From the NCBI GenBank assembly GCA_030587475.2, contig JAUQYZ020000186.1:1-11509 (forward strand): DNA of 11,509 bases. The letters run 5' to 3'. A model generated the notes under the pieces. It was not told the DNA's origin. It saw nothing but the letters and a program-made list of their open reading frames with translations, and did not search any database. This document shows, piece after piece, positions 894 through 11,471 of this stretch (positions are counted from its first letter, which is position 1; each line of letters starts with the position of its first letter). Position numbers and translations under genes: made by a program. This stretch comes from Candidatus Sigynarchaeum calidifontis. Its GTDB lineage: Archaea; Asgardarchaeota; Lokiarchaeia; Sigyniarchaeales; Sigyniarchaeaceae.

Positions 894-2114
894 TCAAGCA
901 CTGTTGGCGCCCTTCGTCGCGGCGGCTTCCTTCAAGACAGACACCTCGGGTATGCGTGCCCGTCGCACCTCGGCGCGGCGAACGAATACCCACGTGTTTT
1001 TCTCCGCTGCACAGATGTAGAAGTTTTCCTTCTCGAGCAGGGCCCTGTCCACGAGCACCCGTGTGCCGGTCGCGAGGTCACAGGCACCACCGGCCAGCCG
1101 CGACGCCGCGTCCGCATTCGCGGGGGCGATCGAGCGGGCCGTCCCGGATAGCCGGTGGCGCGCCGCAGCGACCTGGCGGAGTTTCTCGACGTCCACCTCG
1201 GCATCCACGGGGATCATGACGGCGGTGACTTGTTCAGCCCCGTCATTCTTGTTGACGTGCCGCTTGGTCATGATACAAGCCACCGCGGTTCGCTCGTCGA
1301 TTTTAGGATACAAGGTTACCAGGCGCCCGGCGAGATGCAGGCGACGCAGCACGGCGGGCACGAGACCGGGCACGTCTCCCGCATCGCCGCCGGGATGAAC
1401 CCACACGGGACGGGCGCGCGAGCCAGTCCTGGAAGAATGGGTGGATCTTGACGAGGCAGGCGCCCGCGAACGCCTTGAATGGCTCCTCGATTGCTGCCCC
1501 GAGACCACATCGCGGGTGGGTTCCTCGGCAATTTCGGGAAGCCGGGCGCGCACGGCATCGGCAATCGCCGGCATTCCCTTCACGGTGGACACGAGCCGGT
1601 ACCGATTCTTGCCCTTGACCAGCTCGAGCAAGCCTTCTTCACATGCCCTGGCCACCATCTGGCGTACCTGTCGCTCCGTGTATCCAGCAGCCCCCATGTC
1701 GTCGGCGATCTCGGAAAATGACCTTGATATAACCCCCTCTGAGACGAGCAAAGCGATGTCTGCCTTCAATGCCTTGTAGGCGAGTTCTCTCCGCGTTGCG
1801 ACCCGTTTCGCGTACCCGATGATGCCCCGGCCAGGCGAGATGCGTGCTTCCTCGGCAGCGGCACGATCCAGCACGAGACCGCCCGCGGCACGAGCACGCT
1901 CGACCTCCCGGTCGATGAGCAGCGAAATGATGTCGAACACCAGCAAGAACACGAGGCATGCCTCGGTTATCATGGATGCGATGGGCCAGAACCAGTTTTC
2001 CGCTGGCGGCCGGAGCGCGGCATACACGACGGGGAGCAGCACGAGGCCACACGCGATGCCCAGGGCCGCTTGCACCTTGCGCCACCGCAGCCATCTCGAT
2101 ACTTGTCTTGCCAT
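894..2114 (-). CDS. Membrane-anchored protein: two N-terminal TM helices, winged-helix domain, Ser/Arg-rich linker, C-terminal degenerate YbaK/ProX-like domain
   Basis: Hydrophobic segments ALGIACGLVLLPVVYAAL and FWPIASMITEACLVFLLVFDIISLLI. wHTH-like segment SFSEIADDMG...TERQVRQMVARACEEGLLELVKGKNRYRL. YbaK-like segment AVMIPVDAEVDVEKL...RVLVDRALLEKENFYICAAEKNTWVFV. ATG 2114 was chosen as start; TTG 2135 is an alternative. Confidence 0.65.
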   Translation of the reverse strand: MARQVSRWLRWRKVQAALGIACGLVLLPVVYAALRPPAENWFWPIASMITEACLVFLLVFDIISLLIDREVERARAAGGLVLDRAAAEEARISPGRGIIGYAKRVATRRELAYKALKADIALLVSEGVISRSFSEIADDMGAAGYTERQVRQMVARACEEGLLELVKGKNRYRLVSTVKGMPAIADAVRARLPEIAEEPTRDVVSGQQSRSHSRRSRAPASSRSTHSSRTGSRARPVWVHPGGDAGDVPGLVPAVLRRLHLAGRLVTLYPKIDERTAVACIMTKRHVNKNDGAEQVTAVMIPVDAEVDVEKLRQVAAARHRLSGTARSIAPANADAASRLAGGACDLATGTRVLVDRALLEKENFYICAAEKNTWVFVRRAEVRRARIPEVSVLKEAAATKGANSA

Positions 2115-2250
2115 CAGCCTCGCACCCGTGAGCAATCCTCGTCGTGCAGCTTGTACAAGGTTGGGTACGTTTTAATCGATGCCCGCGGTAAAGAAGCATT
2201 ATATCTCCCGACCCAGATACACAACTAGCAACCAAACGGGGCACGCGCTC

Positions 2251-3139: not shown

Positions 3140-3742
3140 TTATTTTGCGGCCGCGATAGCCGTCCCGCAAGAGGGACAGAACCGCGACTCTCGCGCGATC
3201 ACCGCCCCGCAGTTCTTGCACGGGGGATAGTTTCCGCTCGCAACGTTGGTCGAGAAGTCCTCTACTTTCTTCAAGGTGTCCCGGATGTGCGTCGAGAAGT
3301 GTTCGATCGCGAGCTTGATTTTCGGGAAGTTGATGCCGGACGCGGGATCCTTCATGCGTACCTTTATCATCATCTCGGCAATAAAGTCAAGATAATTCCC
3401 GAAGAAAATGAGCTCGGGCTCGAAATTCTCGAGCAACATGACCTCGATAAATCCGCGAGAGAAATCCGTGAGGCGGAATACCTTCTTGGCAGGGCCGAGA
3501 GCCGATTTCTGCTCTTGACCCTCGATATACTTCTCGCCTTGCATCCGGGAGAGCAGAGGGTAAATAGTGCCGGATTGGGGTGTCCACATGCCCGCAAAGG
3601 TCTTGTTAAGGTCATTGATGAGATCGTACCCCGATATTCCGATAGGGTCAGCTTGATACACCTTGAGCAGGATCATGAATTCCAGCGGTGACAATTTCAC
3701 GTCCACGCCCTTGATCTTGAGCTTCTTTCCCATGAAGAACAT
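3140..3742 (-). CDS. PadR-family transcriptional regulator with C-terminal zinc ribbon
   Basis: PadR wHTH signature ILLKV...SGYDLINDL...WTPQSGTIYPLLSRM...GPAKKVFRLT. C-terminal CKNCG...CPSCG. Confidence 0.9.
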   Translation of the reverse strand: MFFMGKKLKIKGVDVKLSPLEFMILLKVYQADPIGISGYDLINDLNKTFAGMWTPQSGTIYPLLSRMQGEKYIEGQEQKSALGPAKKVFRLTDFSRGFIEVMLLENFEPELIFFGNYLDFIAEMMIKVRMKDPASGINFPKIKLAIEHFSTHIRDTLKKVEDFSTNVASGNYPPCKNCGAVIARESRFCPSCGTAIAAAK

Positions 3743-3743
3743 C

Positions 3744-4265
3744 TCACGCTTGCCTCGCTACCTTTTTCAATTCCTCGTCGATCTTCTTGTCCAACCATGA
3801 CCGCTTTTGTGCTGGCGAACCAGCGTTTTTACGGAACATTAAGTAGAACACGAGGTGCACGAGAACCGCCAGGCCCATCGCCCCGACCGGCCATACGAAC
3901 CACGGGATCGCCGGGCTCGCGACCAAGTTTATCACGATGACCGCCTGGGTTGAGAACAGCTCGGCAATGACGTGGAAGATGAGACCTTTCTTATTCCCGC
4001 CAATGACACCCCTCGCGTAGATCAAGTACGCGGTGGCGTGGATGCCGACACCCACGAGCCACGAGCTCACGACGATGATCGCCCAGTCGAGGCTGCCATG
4101 ATTCACGATAAAATAGTCCAAGAGTAGTAAAAAGATGTTGACACAAATATATGCAATGACATGAACTTTCAAGACAAAGGCAAGGATGACCTTCTCCTTT
4201 GCAATCCGCCTGAGTGCCTCGTCGGAGAACGGCGAGGCAGGCTCTCCAGCCGTGCGATTTGCCAT
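3744..4265 (-). CDS. Membrane protein with tandem 2TM-domain repeats (4 TM helices)
   Basis: Two similar units: HVIAYICVNIFLLLLD...WAIIVVSSWLVGVGIHA and HVIAELFSTQAVIVIN...WFVWPVGAMGLAVLVHL. Charged tail SWLDKKIDEELKK. The start could be 4265, 4280 or 4310. The stop lies 1 nt before the PadR ATG, suggesting a shared operon. Confidence 0.8.
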   Translation of the reverse strand: MANRTAGEPASPFSDEALRRIAKEKVILAFVLKVHVIAYICVNIFLLLLDYFIVNHGSLDWAIIVVSSWLVGVGIHATAYLIYARGVIGGNKKGLIFHVIAELFSTQAVIVINLVASPAIPWFVWPVGAMGLAVLVHLVFYLMFRKNAGSPAQKRSWLDKKIDEELKKVARQA

Positions 4266-4430
4266 CAAGATCACGCTCATCAAAACGGTTCTAAATCGAG
4301 AACTTGCCAAATCTACATAGATTTTATCGCGGCGACATAGATAATTTCACGTGGGCATTTATAATTGTTCCATCATCGCCAGTTCTATCGGGAAAAAAAA
4401 GCCCACCAGCGCAGGATCCTGGGTGAGAAA

Positions 4431-5828
4431 TCAATTCCGCTGGTGAAACTGAGGAAGGTATGGCTTCTGGAGGGCAAGCATCTTGTCCAAGATGGCGCGG
4501 GCGATGTTCGGATTGGGCACCGTGCCGTCGATGCACAGGGCCTGGAGCGCGGTGTTGTAATCGCCGGTAATGGCCGCCTCGACCACCAAGTCTTGGAGCG
4601 CCGCTTCCCGCACGAGAAGGGCCTCGATACCCTTGGGCATGCGGCCGACCGGAGTGCCGTGAATGCCATTTTTGTCGACCGTCGCCGGTATCTCCACCGT
4701 GCAGTCGGGCGGCAGACGCTCGATGTAAAAGCTATCGTTTTGGATGTTCACCGCGTGCTCGTGTTGTTTCGTGTCGTGCTCGATGCCGATCATGATCGGG
4801 ATGGCCCGCTCGCCCGATTGCTTAACCCACCAGTGGTTGCCGATTTTCCCGTCGATCGTGTCTTGCATCTGTTGCTTGAGCTGGCGGCTGTGGCTCGCAT
4901 CGGCCTTGAAATCATACTTTCCAGCCATGGTGTAATACAAGCTCCACGGGATGTATTCCCCGGGATGGTTGGCTCCCGGATAGGTAAGATGGCCATATAT
5001 GTTTATCAATTCGACGAGAAAAGGGTTTTCCATCTCCTCGAACAGCACGGGTGCCCGCTTGCGGATCTCGGGCAGCAAATCAGTGCCAGCAGGGAGCTTG
5101 ACCTCTGGATGCGGGCCGAGTTGGCGCAGCTTGACCTCTTCCTTCGCAACGAGCTTGATTATCCAAAAGAAGTGGTTAAGGCCCGCGGACACGAGCTCGC
5201 ATTTCCGGAGGATCCCGCCGAAAAGGCCTTCGATGAACGCCATGGCACTGCCAACGCCGTGGCACAGGCCCGTGTTCCGCTTGTAAAAGGTGGGCTCTGT
5301 TTTACTCATGTACCGGTTGATTGCCCAGGTGAGCCGCGGTACCGGGTTCGAGTAATTGAAGAGTCGGGCCGTTTTTGCGACATCGTGCATGGTATCGGCG
5401 AGTTTAAGCATGGGCGGTACTTGCCGGAACGTGTGGAACATGCCTCCAGGACCACCATTTTCTCCGTAAACCTGGGTGCTGCCCAGGGAGATGGGCACGT
5501 AGTAATCCTGCTTCCAGGTCTCCATGCGGTTGCCATGCTCGATGGTCATGATCACGTACGTCGCATCCCGCAATGCTTCTTGAGGATTCGTCGTCGCCTC
5601 GACCTTGAAATGTATAGGCTCGCCTTCGTTCGTGGATTCCTTTATCGCCATGTTGAATACTTTCTCTACCCGCCTCAAGTTGATCTCGTCGATGTCGTGT
5701 AGCATAATGGTCGCGCCGGCGAGCTGCTCGGCGCCGATCGTCATGAGGTCGCCAAGCGTGCCTAGCCCGAACTGGACCGACCCGGCACCGACGACCACTA
5801 TCTTCGCATCGCATTGTTTCGCTGTCAT
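4431..5828 (-). CDS. Glycoside hydrolase family 4 (NAD+/Mn2+-dependent alpha-galactosidase/alpha-glucosidase-like)
   Basis: KIVVVGAGS NAD-binding start, GENGGPGG, NYSNP, GLCH (metal Cys), AGLNHFFW, VEIPA, ALQAL. An AAGGTG SD-like sequence lies upstream of ATG 5828. Confidence 0.93.
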   Translation of the reverse strand: MTAKQCDAKIVVVGAGSVQFGLGTLGDLMTIGAEQLAGATIMLHDIDEINLRRVEKVFNMAIKESTNEGEPIHFKVEATTNPQEALRDATYVIMTIEHGNRMETWKQDYYVPISLGSTQVYGENGGPGGMFHTFRQVPPMLKLADTMHDVAKTARLFNYSNPVPRLTWAINRYMSKTEPTFYKRNTGLCHGVGSAMAFIEGLFGGILRKCELVSAGLNHFFWIIKLVAKEEVKLRQLGPHPEVKLPAGTDLLPEIRKRAPVLFEEMENPFLVELINIYGHLTYPGANHPGEYIPWSLYYTMAGKYDFKADASHSRQLKQQMQDTIDGKIGNHWWVKQSGERAIPIMIGIEHDTKQHEHAVNIQNDSFYIERLPPDCTVEIPATVDKNGIHGTPVGRMPKGIEALLVREAALQDLVVEAAITGDYNTALQALCIDGTVPNPNIARAILDKMLALQKPYLPQFHQRN

Positions 5829-5931: not shown

Positions 5932-6942
5932 CTATTTCAGCGCGTTGTAGGCCAAGACGATGCCAGCGAAGTGTTTAAAAACCTTGTCCACGTTTTCCCC
6001 TGTCTTGGCGGAAGTTTCGAAATAAGGGACATTGAGCGTGGCGGCCATCGATTTTGCTTCGAGTTCGCTGATCGCCCGCTGGTCGACAAGGTCGTTCTTA
6101 TTCCCGAGCAACACGCAGTTAAATGGAGCCCCTTCGAGGCTCTTCTTGACGTCCTCGTGCCAGTCCTTGATGCTGGCGAGCGATTCCTTTTTCGTGAGGT
6201 CGAAAACGAGGATGACGCCACTTGCGCCCGAGTAGAAGTGCTTCCGCATCTTCGTGAACTTCGCTTGCCCTGCCACGTCCCATAAAATCATGGTGAAAAG
6301 CCCGTTCTCGTAGGTGATGGTCTTTTCCGTGATGTTCACGCCGATCGTGGGAAGGTATGTCTTGCGGAAGGCCTTTTCCGTGAACTGGATGACGAGGCTG
6401 GTCTTCCCGACGTTGGGATCGCCAACCACGACGATCTTGCACTTGAACGGCGCCTTTTCGCCCTCGGTCTCGTCCGATGGGAACGCTCCGCCCGTCTTTT
6501 CCTCGCGCTCGAGGGCCTCGAGCATACCACTCACCTCTTCATGGAAGCCGGAAAGCATGTTGGTGTAATGGGGTTTGGGTGCCTTTTTCTCGTGCAAGCC
6601 CTTCGCGATGGCCGCGTACTTGTCGAATATCTCCTCGAACTGCTTGAAATACCGGTAGAAGGCGGCGTCTTCTGCCTCGTCGAACAGCAAGACGATCGCC
6701 GCCTCCCCCGTGCCAGCCCGTAGCTTCGCATCCTCAAAGCTGACGAACCGGACGAGCGCCTTCATACCATACGCTGGGACGGGGATCATAGCCACGCCCT
6801 TCGGTAGCGCCTCCATGGTGGCGACCATAGTCATCATGGGGATCTTGTCCCGCATCTCCTCGGACAAGTCCTGGGGCAACCAGTTCTGCGCCATCGGCCC
6901 GAGTTTCTCGTCGAACACGACGTAAAGAACGCTCGTCTTCAT
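5932..6942 (-). CDS. uDENN/longin-like domain fused to a Rab-like small GTPase
   Basis: C-terminal G motifs: G1 GDPNVGKTS, G2 PTIG, G3 WDVAGQ, G4 NKND, G5 ETSAK. RabF-like motifs IGVNI, FYSGA, LVFDLT. No C-terminal Cys prenylation motif. N-terminal LYVVFDEKLGP...FVSFEDAKLRAG...AIVLLF resembles uDENN/longin domains. ATG 6942 is preferred because ATG 6987 overlaps a TATA-like box. Confidence 0.88.
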   Translation of the reverse strand: MKTSVLYVVFDEKLGPMAQNWLPQDLSEEMRDKIPMMTMVATMEALPKGVAMIPVPAYGMKALVRFVSFEDAKLRAGTGEAAIVLLFDEAEDAAFYRYFKQFEEIFDKYAAIAKGLHEKKAPKPHYTNMLSGFHEEVSGMLEALEREEKTGGAFPSDETEGEKAPFKCKIVVVGDPNVGKTSLVIQFTEKAFRKTYLPTIGVNITEKTITYENGLFTMILWDVAGQAKFTKMRKHFYSGASGVILVFDLTKKESLASIKDWHEDVKKSLEGAPFNCVLLGNKNDLVDQRAISELEAKSMAATLNVPYFETSAKTGENVDKVFKHFAGIVLAYNALK

Positions 6943-6986
6943 AGTCAGGTCAACTACTAATCCATTTCTCGCATACCCCCTGATCA

Positions 6987-6992
6987 TTTAAA
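6987..6992 (-). promoter_or_regulatory. Putative archaeal TATA box for the Rab-like gene
   Basis: TTTAAA about 45 nt upstream of ATG 6942, next to a GC-rich intergenic stretch. Confidence 0.4.
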
Positions 6993-7106
6993 CAAGCCAC
7001 GCGATCATCGCCGCCGAAGGATTCAAGAGCGGTAGACGCGCCTGGTTTGCCTGGCAGGGAGCCCGTCGCGCCGTGCCCCGCTCCGCACGGGCACTGGTGC
7101 AACACG

Positions 7107-7114
7107 TTTTTATC
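7107..7114 (+). promoter_or_regulatory. Putative archaeal TATA box for the Arf-like gene
   Basis: TTTTTATC ends about 20 nt before ATG 7135, which is leaderless-type spacing. TAATATA at 7126-7132 could instead serve ATG 7168. Confidence 0.4.
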
Positions 7115-7134
7115 ATCTCGGGGGGTAATATAGG

Positions 7135-8223
7135 ATGATCACTTTCCAATCACCCGCGTGGGAGACCATGAGCGACAAGATCGAGCCATCAGCCCTTTTA
7201 CCAGCCTTCCAGGACTTTCTACAGAAAGGAAAAGCATCGCTGGACGCGAAAAACTACAAGATGGCAGCTGCCAGTTTTAACATTGCCGCGAAGATCTTGA
7301 CCGACATTCAAGCTTCTGGCGGGGAGGTGCCGGAAGCAGACGTGAAAGTCCTCGCGGAGCTCTTGGCTAAAGCTAACGAGGGTAGCGAGAAAGAAGACAA
7401 GCAGGCGAAGGAGACGTCCGGATCGCAGCTCGCCGTCCTGCGCGAGCGCGGCGCCAAGGCCGAGTCCGCGGGCAAGAAGGTCAAGATCATGAGCGTCTTC
7501 CTCTTCGGCCTCGATGCCGCGGGCAAGACCACGTTCATCGATTACATCAACAACGAGCGGTTCATCGACCACGCGCCGACCGTCGGCGTCAGCATCAGCC
7601 GCATCGCGCTCGGCAGCATGAAATTCGTGTTCAACGATGTCGGCGGGCAAGAAAAATACCGCAATGAATGGCGGAAGTACTGGAAGGACCCGGACTTCAT
7701 GGTGTTCATGGTCGACGCGTCTGACAGCGCTAGGTTCGAGTTCGCGAAGGATTATCTCTGGAAGGTCCTCAACGATTTCGTCACCGAGGGTGTCCCGCTC
7801 GTGGTCATGTCCAACAAGATCGACAAGCCCGATGCCAGGCCGCTGGCCGAGGTGGTGAACGCGCTCGATCTCGGGGCGATAAAGGATCGTCTCGTCGGGG
7901 TGTTCGAAACGTCCGTGAAAACGAGCAAGAACATAGACAAGGCGCTCAACTTCGTCGCGAGCACGGCGCTGAGCGACCAGGCCTTGCGACGCTTCGTCGA
8001 TTCCGAGATTGCTCGACTCAACCGCAACCTCGGCGAGTTCTACAAGGCCTATGTCGAGGAAGCGAAGTATCTCGAAGGGCAGAAGGATTTCAAGAAGGCC
8101 GCAGACCGCGTGAACAAGGCCAAGCTCGTGCAAGAGGAGCTGTTCAAGCAAGGATTCTCGAAGGCTGCGAAGGAAATTCAAAAATGTAACGCGTGGATTG
8201 CCAGATTGAATGCAGCGAAATAA
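7135..8223 (+). CDS. Arf-family-like small GTPase with N- and C-terminal helical (MIT/TPR-like) modules
   Basis: G1 GLDAAGKTT (Arf signature), G2 PTVG, G3 NDVGGQ followed by EKYRNEWRKYW (Arf RxxWxxY), MVDASDSARF, G4 NKID, G5 ETSVK. Helical extensions on both sides. Alternative start at 7168 (GGAG upstream). Confidence 0.88.
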   Translation: MITFQSPAWETMSDKIEPSALLPAFQDFLQKGKASLDAKNYKMAAASFNIAAKILTDIQASGGEVPEADVKVLAELLAKANEGSEKEDKQAKETSGSQLAVLRERGAKAESAGKKVKIMSVFLFGLDAAGKTTFIDYINNERFIDHAPTVGVSISRIALGSMKFVFNDVGGQEKYRNEWRKYWKDPDFMVFMVDASDSARFEFAKDYLWKVLNDFVTEGVPLVVMSNKIDKPDARPLAEVVNALDLGAIKDRLVGVFETSVKTSKNIDKALNFVASTALSDQALRRFVDSEIARLNRNLGEFYKAYVEEAKYLEGQKDFKKAADRVNKAKLVQEELFKQGFSKAAKEIQKCNAWIARLNAAK

Positions 8224-8537: not shown

Positions 8538-9941
8538 ATGAGTACAGACATGAGCACGTGGGCGGAGGCACTGTTGGACGGCATCGATATCGACAAGTTC
8601 ATCGTGTGCACGTACATCGTGTGCTTGCCCTATGATTATGAGAACCAATTTGCAAACATCGCCAAGGTCATCGCGGAGGAGCAGTCGATCGGGACGTGGA
8701 CGCACGTGCCAGAGGAGACTCCCGCGGTGCGGCGGCGCTTCATCGGCAAAGTGCTTCAATGCGTCGAGATCCCCCAGTACGAGGTCATGCGCCCCGAGCG
8801 GAAGAACCGGGTACCCTTCGGTGGCGACGGGCAGATCCCCCTCATCCCGTACTTGATGACCATCGGTTACCCAGCGGATCTTTTCAACGACGATAACTTC
8901 AGTCTGCTCTTGACGTCGATTTATGGCAACATTTCCATGGTAGGGCCAATTAGATTGGTGAGCGTCCGGTTTGGAAAGGAAACAATGAGCCGTTATAAAG
9001 GCCCGACATTTGGCTTGGAGGGTATCTACAAGAAACTCAAGATTCCGCTCGCACCCGATCCCAAGACCCGTCCGGTCACGATCAACATGATCAAGCCCAA
9101 GACGGGTTACACGAAAGATGTCGGAAAGAAGATCTTCTGGGAGGCGGCCATCGGTGGCGTCGACATCATCAAGGACGACGAGATGATCGCCGACTGCAAG
9201 CAAATGGATAACGCGATCGAGGAACGCGTCCCCATGTACATGGAGATGCGCGACAAGAAACTGGCCGAGACCGGCGAGGAGACCATCTACACCGTGAACA
9301 TTTCCGACCGAATGGATAGGATGCTGGAGCTTTATGACAAGGTCGTCTCGCTGGGTGGAAACGGCGTGATGATCAATTACATCAACTGTGGCTGGTCATG
9401 CGTGAAACCACTTACCGACAAGGGCAAGCTCGTCATGCTTGGCCACACGGATGGCGGAGGCGCGTATTACGTTTCACCAATGTCCGGTATCTCGTCCGAT
9501 CTCGTGCTCGGCATCTTCCCGCGCATGCTCGGCGTCGACATCCCGCTCGTCCCGGCCCCCTACGGCAAGGCACCGTACATCGTCGACCGGTACCTCCAGC
9601 TTTGCAAGGCCATCACCATGCCCCTCGGGTACGGCGACCACCAGCTCAAGGCCTGCCTGCCCTTCCCATCCGGCGGCATCCAGACCCAGCACATCCCCCA
9701 ATTGATCAAGGATCTCGGCCCCAACATCGGCATCGGCACGGGCGGTGGCATCCACGCGCACCCCATGGGCTCGATCGCCGGCGCCAAGGCCTTCCGCCAG
9801 GCGTTCGACGCGTGCATGGCAGGCGAATGGGATCTCAAGAAATATGCCAAGGAAAAGAATTTGCAAGAACTTGCCGTTTCCTTGGGCATGATGGACATGG
9901 CACACGATGGCCTCAAGACTATGTTCAAATCGAAGAAATAG
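8538..9941 (+). CDS. RuBisCO-like protein (form IV RLP, probably DeepYkr-like)
   Basis: EQSIGTWT, YGNISM, IKPKTG, GGVDIIKDDE (carbamylated Lys motif), LGHTD, PAPYGK, PSGG, GGGIHAHPMG. It lacks the H-R pair (R295) and the H327 equivalent of bona fide RuBisCO. Confidence 0.92.
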   Translation: MSTDMSTWAEALLDGIDIDKFIVCTYIVCLPYDYENQFANIAKVIAEEQSIGTWTHVPEETPAVRRRFIGKVLQCVEIPQYEVMRPERKNRVPFGGDGQIPLIPYLMTIGYPADLFNDDNFSLLLTSIYGNISMVGPIRLVSVRFGKETMSRYKGPTFGLEGIYKKLKIPLAPDPKTRPVTINMIKPKTGYTKDVGKKIFWEAAIGGVDIIKDDEMIADCKQMDNAIEERVPMYMEMRDKKLAETGEETIYTVNISDRMDRMLELYDKVVSLGGNGVMINYINCGWSCVKPLTDKGKLVMLGHTDGGGAYYVSPMSGISSDLVLGIFPRMLGVDIPLVPAPYGKAPYIVDRYLQLCKAITMPLGYGDHQLKACLPFPSGGIQTQHIPQLIKDLGPNIGIGTGGGIHAHPMGSIAGAKAFRQAFDACMAGEWDLKKYAKEKNLQELAVSLGMMDMAHDGLKTMFKSKK

Positions 9942-10034: not shown

Positions 10035-11471
10035 ATGATAGAATCAACTAGCGGTTACCAGGAAAGGCTCCCGGCGCGGTCGAAAGCCGCCTACGCGCTC
10101 GCTAACGGTGCAAATGGGCTCCTTTCCGGGCTCGGGCTGAATAACTTGATTTTTTTTTATTCAGAGAAGCTCAATTTCGACACGAGCCTGCAAGGAATAG
10201 CATGGCTAATTTTCATCGTCGTGAACGCGCTCAACGATCCTATCCTTGGCATTCTCGAAGAACGGGTCAACACCAAGATCGGCCGCAGGATCCCGATCTT
10301 GCGATATGGTGCACCCTTGTACGCAGTGTTATTCATTCTCATGTGGTTCCCCTTTGCCCCCGCCGGTAACCAGCCTCTTCTCTTCGTGAATTACTTGCTG
10401 ATGCTCTGCATATTCGACACCGTGTACTCCATGATCGGCCTCGTGACCTATTCCTTGCCCGCGGAAATGGCGATCACGGCGAAAGAGCGTTCCAGTATCA
10501 TGGTGTATTCCACGCTGATCGGCTTTGTCCCGACGGTCCTTGGCTTCGTCTTGCCTTTGGCACTCTTGAAAAAAGGCCCCGGTGGGGTCCTTGAATGGCA
10601 AGTGATCATGCTGCTGATCGCGGCGATCGGCGGAGGCTTGCTCTACGGAAGCAGCTATTTCATCAAGGAAAATGCCTGGGCGAGGAGAGAACAAGCACTC
10701 GGGTTTGTCGCGAGTATCAAGGAAACGCTCAAGAACAAGCAGTTCCTCGTGCTGGAAGTAAGCATCTTCGCATTGCTCATCGTGTCGACGACGATCACTA
10801 CTGGATTGCTTTATCTTTTCAATTACGTCTTCATCAAGAGTAGCTCCCTCGATTACGCATATTTCATTTTCCCCATCAGTGCGCTGGTCGCGACCATTTT
10901 CTTTTTCAACAAGTTCGTCCCGCGTCTCGGCGTGCGCAAGATTTTCATCATCGGTTCGGTCATTGGTGGGTTAGGATTCGCCATGCTGCCGTTGTTCGGC
11001 CGCCAACTTTCCATACTATGCATTCCGATAACGTTCGTGGCCGTTGGCTTCGCGGCCATCATCATCGGACAGCAACCGCTCATGTCGGACGTGATCGACT
11101 ACGACGAGATGCTCACGGGCAAGCGCCGCGAGACCACCTACAGCGGGGTCAATGCCCTGATCACGAAGGCAGCAATCTCGATCGCTAACTGGATGTTCCT
11201 GGAGATCATACGGGCTTACGGATATAATTCCACTTGCGATGAATGCACCCAGCCAGACAGCGTGGCAACGGGCGTGATCATGGCCTTTACCATCATCCCC
11301 GTGGTCTGCGTTTTTTTCGCGACGATCTCGCTCAAGTACTTCAAGCTCGACGGCCCCGAATGGCTCGCCAAGAAAAAAGCACTGGAGCAAGAGCACCAGA
11401 GAAAGGAGAAAGAATACATCGAATTCTTGTCTCGCCAGGGAAAATTGCCAGGCGGGGAAGCAAAAAAATAA
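10035..11471 (+). CDS. MFS transporter, glycoside-pentoside-hexuronide (GPH/MelB-like) family
   Basis: About 12 hydrophobic segments; NALNDPILG, TKIGRRIP, LPAEMAITAKER, SDVIDYDEMLTGKRRETTYSG. Confidence 0.92.
   Translation: MIESTSGYQERLPARSKAAYALANGANGLLSGLGLNNLIFFYSEKLNFDTSLQGIAWLIFIVVNALNDPILGILEERVNTKIGRRIPILRYGAPLYAVLFILMWFPFAPAGNQPLLFVNYLLMLCIFDTVYSMIGLVTYSLPAEMAITAKERSSIMVYSTLIGFVPTVLGFVLPLALLKKGPGGVLEWQVIMLLIAAIGGGLLYGSSYFIKENAWARREQALGFVASIKETLKNKQFLVLEVSIFALLIVSTTITTGLLYLFNYVFIKSSSLDYAYFIFPISALVATIFFFNKFVPRLGVRKIFIIGSVIGGLGFAMLPLFGRQLSILCIPITFVAVGFAAIIIGQQPLMSDVIDYDEMLTGKRRETTYSGVNALITKAAISIANWMFLEIIRAYGYNSTCDECTQPDSVATGVIMAFTIIPVVCVFFATISLKYFKLDGPEWLAKKKALEQEHQRKEKEYIEFLSRQGKLPGGEAKK

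What the first reader, a model, noticed from the sequence alone, without database searches (positions are those of the whole stretch)
5932..8223. Head-to-head pair of multidomain Rab-like and Arf-like GTPases: candidate two-GTPase signalling module
Seen: the two genes diverge from a spacer of about 190 bp with a TATA-like box on each strand. Both have complete G1-G5 motifs and a catalytic Gln. Neither has a lipidation signal (no C-terminal Cys motif, no N-terminal Gly2), and both carry protein-interaction domains instead. Known: Rab-Arf cascades organise eukaryotic trafficking, and C9orf72-SMCR8 has longin-based GAP activity toward ARF proteins. Inference: this could be a co-regulated cascade in which the longin-Rab protein regulates the Arf-like protein. 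Placement among sugar-utilisation genes hints at nutrient-linked signalling, but Asgard genomes have many small GTPases, so adjacency could be chance.
Basis: partly seen in the sequence, partly recalled or inferred. Interest (0 to 1): 0.75.

Follow-up and report, generated by a model that had tools for sequence, protein, structure and literature searches.

The report
Asgard Arf with candidate off-switch neighbour
In one family of Asgard archaea (close relatives of eukaryotes), an Arf-type GTPase switch gene sits head-to-head with a gene for a Rab-like GTPase fused to the kind of domain that human cells use to turn Arf switches off, which gives an untested but directly testable candidate for an archaeal Arf regulator.

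Summary
The pair is real. Gene A (minus strand) encodes a longin domain fused to a Rab-like (RasL) GTPase. Gene B encodes an Arf-family GTPase between two homologous three-helix modules. A's longin folds like FLCN/C9orf72/NPRL2 longins and keeps their GAP signature (GP motif, Arg75 in the β4–β5 loop). A model docks it on B's switch I/II and catalytic Gln: score 0.75, best control 0.00 (mark reached by 58/80 solved, 2/110 mismatched pairs). This may be memory of SMCR8–ARF1, and specificity is untested. The orthologues are head-to-head in four distant lineages, three with different flanking genes, and unpaired in one incomplete genome where A was not found. Background retention of divergent pairs is 43%, so this excess is modest. 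B's clade was found only in this family, whereas longin–RasL proteins occur widely in the order without it. Best reading (about 0.5): A's longin is B's GAP. A Rab-gated cascade is inference. Missing lipidation is normal for Asgard GTPases; only one TATA-like box is conserved; the sugar link is weak. The scan has noted GAP-type longin–GTPase fusions on other Asgard DNA many times, but not this pair.

The parts
5932..6942 (-). Gene A: GAP-type longin fused to a Rab-like (RasL) GTPase, 336 aa (longest ORF extends to 6987)
   Evidence: Pfam Ras E 1e-49; best PDB sequence match Rab1B E 9e-34
6493..6942 (-). Longin domain with helical extension (residues 1-150), FLCN/C9orf72/NPRL2 type
   Evidence: model pLDDT 93; Z 18.1 to Loki longin 8yqg (rmsd 2.0, 138 aligned), 13.5 Lst4, 13.3 FLCN, 12.7 C9orf72-SMCR8 complex, 11.6 GATOR1 chain; Pfam Folliculin weakly in 9 of 71 family members
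6895..6900 (-). GP motif (G15-P16, in FDEKLGP) before the second strand
   Evidence: invariant in 15/15 paired-clade sequences; G 70/71 and P 67/71 in the wider family
6718..6720 (-). Candidate arginine finger R75 in the β4-β5 loop (D-x3-R-G/A-G)
   Evidence: invariant 15/15 in the paired clade; 69/71 and 84/93 in wider sets; lies between strands 60-70 and 78-88 of the model
5953..6447 (-). RasL/Rab-like G domain with G1-G5; catalytic Gln Q226 at 6265-6267
6943..7167 (.). Divergent spacer, 225 bp; conserved core TTTTTATC (7107-7114), then TAATAT, then the GGGAG context before gene B's ATG
   Evidence: four-way alignment with L063, L054, L056
6987..6992 (-).
7168..8223 (+). Gene B: Arf-family (ArfR/AArf-type) GTPase between two homologous helical modules, 351 aa (longest ORF from 7135)
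7186..7416 (+). N-terminal three-helix module (TPR/MIT-like; family unassigned)
   Evidence: helices 7-26, 30-49, 56-83; homologous to the C-terminal module, hhalign probability 96.6, E 7e-10
7477..7971 (+). Arf G domain: GLDAAGKT, DVGGQ-x3-R-x2-W signature, Gln161 at 7648-7650
   Evidence: Pfam Arf E 1e-38; best PDB matches ARL8A/B E 2e-27, Asgard entries 8oun/8oum/8oul E 3e-23 to 1e-21; Foldseek TM 0.88 to GerdArfR1
7978..8217 (+). C-terminal three-helix module, conserved ELFKQG motif
   Evidence: only weak TPR-like matches (5jno_B E 0.003); no Pfam family above cut-off

Best explanation
Gene A's longin domain is a GTPase-activating (GAP) domain of the FLCN/SMCR8/NPRL2/Avl9 class, and the neighbouring helical-domain Arf (gene B, possibly also its unpaired paralogues) is a substrate in trans. 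The longin, probably as a dimer, binds B's switch I and II; its GP loop sits against Gln161 and it supplies Arg75 to speed GTP hydrolysis, switching B off. The fused RasL domain probably localises or gates this activity, and B's twin helical modules are protein-binding outputs in place of a membrane-binding helix. Shown: the folds, the conserved motifs, orthology, conserved head-to-head order and a passing model. Inferred: catalysis, specificity for B, dimerisation, the role of RasL and co-expression.
For: The fold is nearest to GAP longins, ahead of GEF/adaptor longins. GP and R75 are at the positions published as the GAP-longin signature (PMC12290439; Avl9 preprint 10.64898/2026.01.05.697756 places the finger between β4 and β5) and are invariant in the paired clade. 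Eukaryotic members act mainly on Arf- and Rag-branch GTPases (10.1101/2021.04.13.439632), and B is Arf-family with the Gln intact. Complex model of longin + B's G domain + GTP + Mg: score 0.75, best control 0.00; the mark was reached by 58 of 80 solved and 2 of 110 mismatched pairs (counts hold only roughly here); runs agree in at least 85% of contacts; partner pLDDT at least 88. GP loop touches Q161-Y164 and R75 touches P137; V139/G140/K163 correspond to ARF1 I49/G50/K73, mutated at the SMCR8-C9orf72 interface. The pass may be from memory of solved complexes such as 7MGE. Paired A copies form one clade (100/98); every member with known context faces a B orthologue, three lineages with unrelated flanks. 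A tandem duplicate of A lost GP, the Arg loop and the G3 Gln together while the intact copy kept them.
Against: Divergent pairs are retained in 19 of 44 background comparisons; 4 of 4 distant lineages gives about P 0.03 and 4 of 5 about P 0.11 if independent, which kin are not. Longin-RasL proteins of the same family occur in 25/25 sampled genomes of another family, while B's clade was found in none of 150 genomes outside this family, so the domain has other targets there. This genome has six longin-RasL paralogues, five without an Arf neighbour. One B orthologue (G002, 78% complete) has no A next to it and none was found in that genome. Eukaryotic longin GAPs need a second longin or a cDENN domain; here only a helical extension follows. 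The model was not run against A's own RasL domain or other GTPases.
Confidence: 0.5

Rival explanations
1. The adjacency is inherited gene order with a shared short promoter region and no special functional link; A's longin is a GAP for other Arf- or Rag-type GTPases of the cell.
For: 43% background retention of divergent pairs; the GH4/RLP/MFS block also survives to 52-56% GTPase identity; about 54-67 small-GTPase ORFs in the genome; longin-RasL is widespread without B's clade; the sister paralogue P0041 lies next to a different, ArfL/Rag-like GTPase.
Against: The A-B link is the only link of the block never interrupted when both genes are present; the GH4 and RLP links are broken, inverted or lost. 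The model passes with B in catalytic geometry (with the memory caveat).
Confidence: 0.3
2. A is a self-contained switch: the longin is the GAP of its own fused RasL domain (in cis or across a dimer); B is merely co-regulated.
For: The fusion is conserved widely in the order without B. C9orf72-SMCR8 has weaker RAB8A GAP activity. In the L139 duplicate the Arg and the RasL Gln were lost together.
Against: Across 99 longin-RasL sequences, loss of the Arg and of the Gln are not significantly coupled (81/12/4/2, Fisher P 0.2). Published GAP longins prefer Arf or Rag substrates.
Confidence: 0.12
3. The longin is a non-catalytic binding platform, dimerisation module or GEF-like domain; A and B interact or are co-regulated without GAP catalysis.
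For: Most longins are GEF or adaptor platforms. The closest solved structure (8yqg) is a homodimeric Loki longin without the Arg. No Asgard longin GAP activity was found in the papers searched.
Against: R75 and GP are the best-conserved residues of a family at 22-40% identity, and PMC12290439 reports GP as absent from non-GAP longins.
Confidence: 0.08

Closest known systems
C9orf72-SMCR8(-WDR41) longin Arf GAP (PDB 7MGE, 7O2W, 6LT0; 10.1101/2021.04.13.439632)
   Same: Longin fold (Z 12.7 and 11.3), GP motif, β4-β5 arginine, modelled contact with Arf switch I/II at equivalent positions
   Different: Heterodimer of longin-DENN subunits in eukaryotes; here one longin with no DENN domain, fused to a RasL GTPase; 7-8% identity; activity untested
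Avl9/DENND6A monomeric DENN GAPs (10.64898/2026.01.05.697756): Rab8 recruits Avl9, which inactivates Arf1; DENND6A acts on ARL8B
   Same: Single-chain longin arginine finger acting on an Arf; Rab-to-Arf logic; B's nearest PDB sequences are ARL8A/B
   Different: Avl9 uses cDENN to grip the switches and binds Rab8 as a separate protein; here the Rab-like domain is fused and no membrane anchor is evident
FLCN-FNIP2 and GATOR1 (NPRL2) Rag GAPs
   Same: Longin fold (Z 13.3, 11.6), GP and Arg signature
   Different: Substrates are Rags; heterodimeric; part of mTORC1 nutrient signalling, for which no counterpart was shown here
Asgard GP+Arg 'Folliculin/SMCR8-type' longins (PMC12290439) and Asgard longin-GTPase fusions (PMC10933270; 10.1101/2020.10.19.343400)
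   Same: Same domain class and same kind of fusion
   Different: Those papers name no substrate; PMC10933270 notes that MK-D1 GTPase genes are generally not in operons with longin genes. Here a conserved divergent Arf neighbour supplies a candidate
Asgard ArfR/AArf GTPases (10.1101/2024.02.28.582541; PMC11914678; PDB 8OUK-8OUN)
   Same: GLD G1, DxGGQ G3, Arf fold, no Gly2
   Different: Helical modules on both sides instead of an N-terminal amphipathic helix; clade found only in this family in the genomes searched; architecture not found in the papers searched

Membership tests
GAP-type longin (FLCN/SMCR8/NPRL2/Avl9 class) | Longin fold nearest to GAP longins | tested here: met
GAP-type longin (FLCN/SMCR8/NPRL2/Avl9 class) | GP motif before β2 | tested here: met
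   G15-P16
GAP-type longin (FLCN/SMCR8/NPRL2/Avl9 class) | Conserved Arg in the β4-β5 loop | tested here: met
   R75. Residue-level superposition on SMCR8 R147 was not printed; equivalence rests on topology and the docking model
GAP-type longin (FLCN/SMCR8/NPRL2/Avl9 class) | Arg-dependent GAP activity | not testable with these tools
   needs biochemistry
C9orf72-SMCR8 / FLCN-FNIP / GATOR1 complexes (membership) | Longin-DENN subunits forming a heterodimer | tested here: not met
   The longin is followed by a GTPase, not a DENN domain; works-like only
Arf family (ArfR/AArf) | G1 with Leu-Asp, G3 DxGG, Arf switch II signature | tested here: met
   GLDAAGKT and DVGGQ-x3-R-x2-W against the criteria in PMC11914678
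Arf family (ArfR/AArf) | Nearest structures and sequences are Arf proteins | tested here: met
Arf family (ArfR/AArf) | Phylogenetic placement inside the published ArfR clade | not tested
   No reference ArfR/ArfL/Rag set could be loaded; the tree has only Asgard relatives
Membrane-binding Arf/ArfR subgroup | N-terminal amphipathic helix directly before the G domain | tested here: not met
   A helical domain occupies the N-terminus; linker helix 85-95 has hydrophobic moment about 0.2
Eukaryotic Rab | C-terminal prenylation cysteines | tested here: not met
   A ends without Cys
Eukaryotic Rab | Rab-like G domain | tested here: met
   best PDB matches Rab1B/Rab27A, E 1e-33; published phylogeny puts such Asgard proteins in RasL, not sister to Rab
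MIT or TPR domain (helical modules of B) | Profile or structure match to MIT/TPR | tested here: inconclusive
   three-helix modules; weak TPR-like hits only; module not folded alone
Co-regulated divergent pair | Head-to-head order kept above background | tested here: inconclusive
   4 of 4 (or 4 of 5) distant lineages against 43% background
Co-regulated divergent pair | Co-expression or shared promoter | not testable with these tools

The most novel reading that the evidence does not exclude
An archaeal Rab-like-to-Arf cascade in two genes: the nucleotide state of the RasL domain gates or places a fused FLCN/SMCR8-type GAP that specifically inactivates the divergently co-transcribed Arf. It would be a defined Asgard Arf-GAP pair and a fused prokaryotic analogue of Rab8-Avl9-Arf1.
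Probability: 0.25. Interest if true: 0.85.

Novelty: new variant of a known kind. Interest (0 to 1): 0.62.

Why it matters
Three recent papers leave the same question open: no regulator of Asgard Arf proteins is known (PMC11914678), it is unknown whether GP/arginine longins of Asgards act on ArfR or Rag (PMC12290439), and gene order rarely helps to match Asgard GTPases with regulators (PMC10933270). This locus offers a named enzyme-substrate candidate of two soluble ~340-aa proteins with a predicted catalytic residue, so a simple assay can decide it. A positive result would date longin-based Arf inactivation to before eukaryotes. The limit is that the pair was found only in one Lokiarchaeia family, away from the lineage closest to eukaryotes, so it would be an analogue rather than a direct ancestor.

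Tried and rejected
The sigma-70 promoter scan is not informative for archaea. The 'TATA on each strand' argument was dropped: the A-side box is not conserved. L064 (P0020) first looked like an unpaired orthologue, but its clade is a paralogue that co-occurs with the paired copy in the same MAGs. The truncated A copy in G003 is probably an assembly join, not decay: the same species (100% identical DNA over 3 kb) has the intact gene; G003 and L061 were counted once. Coupled loss of Arg and Gln as support for self-GAP was not significant. Naming B's helical modules failed: Pfam, PDB profile, ESM Atlas features (0.76) and whole-model fold searches gave nothing firm. The nutrient link was not accepted: glycoside hydrolase genes of nine families fall within a 12-kb stretch 14% of the time in this genome (an underestimate), and Sigynarchaeota are reported rich in carbohydrate enzymes; three of three lineages with new flanks do have one nearby, which is post hoc. 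Only one complex job was allowed, so no specificity control with A's own RasL domain or paralogues was run.

Full report
Setting. The window is a whole 11.5-kb contig of a 5.0-Mb MAG. Database names of homologues are Lokiarchaeia, Sigynarchaeota and Promethearchaeota, so this is an Asgard archaeon, probably Sigynarchaeota-like (inference from names). The genome has about 54-67 small-GTPase ORFs.

Observation. Both genes are present and divergent. The likely starts are 6942 (A, 336 aa) and 7168 (B, 351 aa), giving a 225-bp spacer. G1-G5 and the G3 Gln are intact in both; B's G5 reads SVK. Neither has a lipidation signal, which is general for Asgard GTPases (PMC10933270, PMC11914678). The box TTTTTATC at 7107-7114 is conserved in close relatives; the TTTAAA box toward A is not.

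Gene A. Residues 166-330 are a Rab-like G domain (Pfam Ras E 1e-49; Rab1B E 9e-34); published phylogeny calls such proteins RasL and finds no true Rab in Asgards. Residues 1-150 have no Pfam hit of their own but fold confidently (pLDDT 93) into a longin nearest to a Loki longin dimer (Z 18.1), Lst4 (13.5), FLCN (13.3), the C9orf72-SMCR8 complex (12.7, 11.3) and GATOR1 (11.6), ahead of TRAPP, DENND1 and Mon1-Ccz1. G15-P16 and R75 are the best-conserved residues of a family at 22-40% identity. They match the signature that PMC12290439 gives for GAP longins and the β4-β5 arginine of Avl9-type GAPs.

Gene B. The G domain is Arf-family by motifs (GLD, DxGGQ), sequence (ARL8A/B best, Asgard ArfR structures close behind) and fold. 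It lies between two homologous three-helix modules (hhalign 96.6%) of unassigned family. No amphipathic helix precedes the G domain. The clade was found in all four genomes of this family and in none of 150 other genomes of the order; it includes tandem Arf-helix-Arf-helix paralogues.

Conservation of the pair. B orthologues at 91, 82, 75, 67, 60, 56, 53 and 52% identity face an A orthologue head-to-head, as does one more locus. The A partners form one clade (100/98). Three lineages (L058, L061, L067) have unrelated flanks; in others the GH4 and RuBisCO-like links are interrupted or inverted while the pair is not. One true B orthologue (G002) is unpaired, and no A orthologue was found in that 78%-complete genome. 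L064 and L068 are paralogues. Background: divergent pairs of two other genera are adjacent in this genome in 13 of 31 and 6 of 13 cases. Four of four distant lineages gives about P 0.03, four of five about 0.11, assuming an independence that kin lack. The order is therefore ancestral to the family and only modestly better kept than average.

Model of the interaction. The longin with B's G domain, GTP and Mg scored 0.75 against a best control of 0.00; the mark was reached by 58 of 80 solved complexes and 2 of 110 mismatched pairs (counts hold only roughly here); runs agree in at least 85% of contacts; partner pLDDT at least 88. The GP loop touches Q161-Y164 and the P-loop, and R75 touches P137. 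B's V139, G140 and K163 correspond to ARF1 I49, G50 and K73, tested at the SMCR8-C9orf72 interface. Like complexes are solved, so the pass may show likeness rather than that this pair binds. It does not distinguish B from A's own RasL domain or from paralogues.

Against a dedicated pair. Longin-RasL proteins of this family occur in 25 of 25 sampled genomes of another family where B's clade was not found, and five of six paralogues here have no Arf neighbour. A sister paralogue lies directly downstream of an ArfL/Rag-like gene, and an unrelated Asgard locus has a GAP-type longin near an Arf gene, which suggests that such longins recur beside Arf/Rag-branch GTPases but have varied partners. Loss of the Arg and of the RasL Gln are not coupled across 99 sequences (P 0.2), which gives no support to an obligatory self-GAP; one duplicate lost both with the GP motif.

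Mechanism and verdict. Most likely (0.5) A's longin is an arginine-finger GAP for B in trans; gating by RasL, dimerisation and co-expression are inferred. Rivals: inherited order with other targets (0.3), self-GAP (0.12), non-catalytic platform (0.08). The nutrient link is weak. The parts are published (longin-GTPase fusions, GP/Arg longins, ArfR), and the scan has noted GAP-type longin fusions in at least 43 genomes (AI notes, not evidence). What is new here is a conserved gene pair that names a substrate in trans, which makes an explicitly open question testable. New variant of a known kind; interest 0.62.

Noticed in passing
L139:2-2923 (ENA ERZ27247709): Tandem duplicate of gene A next to the Arf gene has lost the GP motif, the Arg loop and the G3 Gln together, while the second copy is intact: a possible dead or decoy copy and a natural negative control.
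   Followed up: partly
L032:924-2520 (G003): The sister longin-RasL paralogue (P0041, GP and Arg intact) lies 16 bp downstream of a co-directional 177-aa ArfL/Rag-like GTPase (WDAPGQ, HKMD).
   Followed up: partly
L118:302-3415 (G145, another Asgard family): A 417-aa GAP-type longin protein without a GTPase domain lies between two response-regulator genes, divergent from an Arf-family gene with a C-terminal extension.
   Followed up: no
G000 C233:35381-36994, C252:82-1818, C126:6943-8160: Family-specific expansion of Arf-plus-helical-module proteins, including tandem Arf-helix-Arf-helix genes with two G domains.
   Followed up: partly
window 8538-9941: RuBisCO-like protein (nearest MtnW/OiaX models, all below cut-off), 79-96% identical in relatives where the GTPases are 52-75%; travels with the GH4 (4431-5828) and GPH-type sugar transporter (10035-11471) genes.
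   Followed up: no
window 894-2135 (-): Protein with N-terminal membrane helices, a winged-helix-like middle and a weak YbaK/tRNA-editing domain match (E 6e-4); conserved in L054.
   Followed up: no
window 3140-4310 (-): PadR regulator with C-terminal zinc ribbon directly downstream of a double 2TM-domain membrane protein.
   Followed up: no
L061:7045-9413: In this lineage the pair is followed on the opposite strand by ThiF (E1-like), JAB and Roc-like GTPase genes, a ubiquitin-like cluster.
   Followed up: no
L017, L018: In another family, a ~300-350-aa Arf-like gene, a 198-aa gene and a small RasL gene form a co-directional cluster.
   Followed up: no
L058, L061, L067: Each lineage with new flanks has a different glycoside hydrolase gene (GH29, GH31, GH3) within about 3 kb of the pair; post hoc, background at least 14%.
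   Followed up: partly
L162, L164 (WJJB01): The genome G002 of this Asgard family is labelled Bathyarchaeota in its record title.
   Followed up: no
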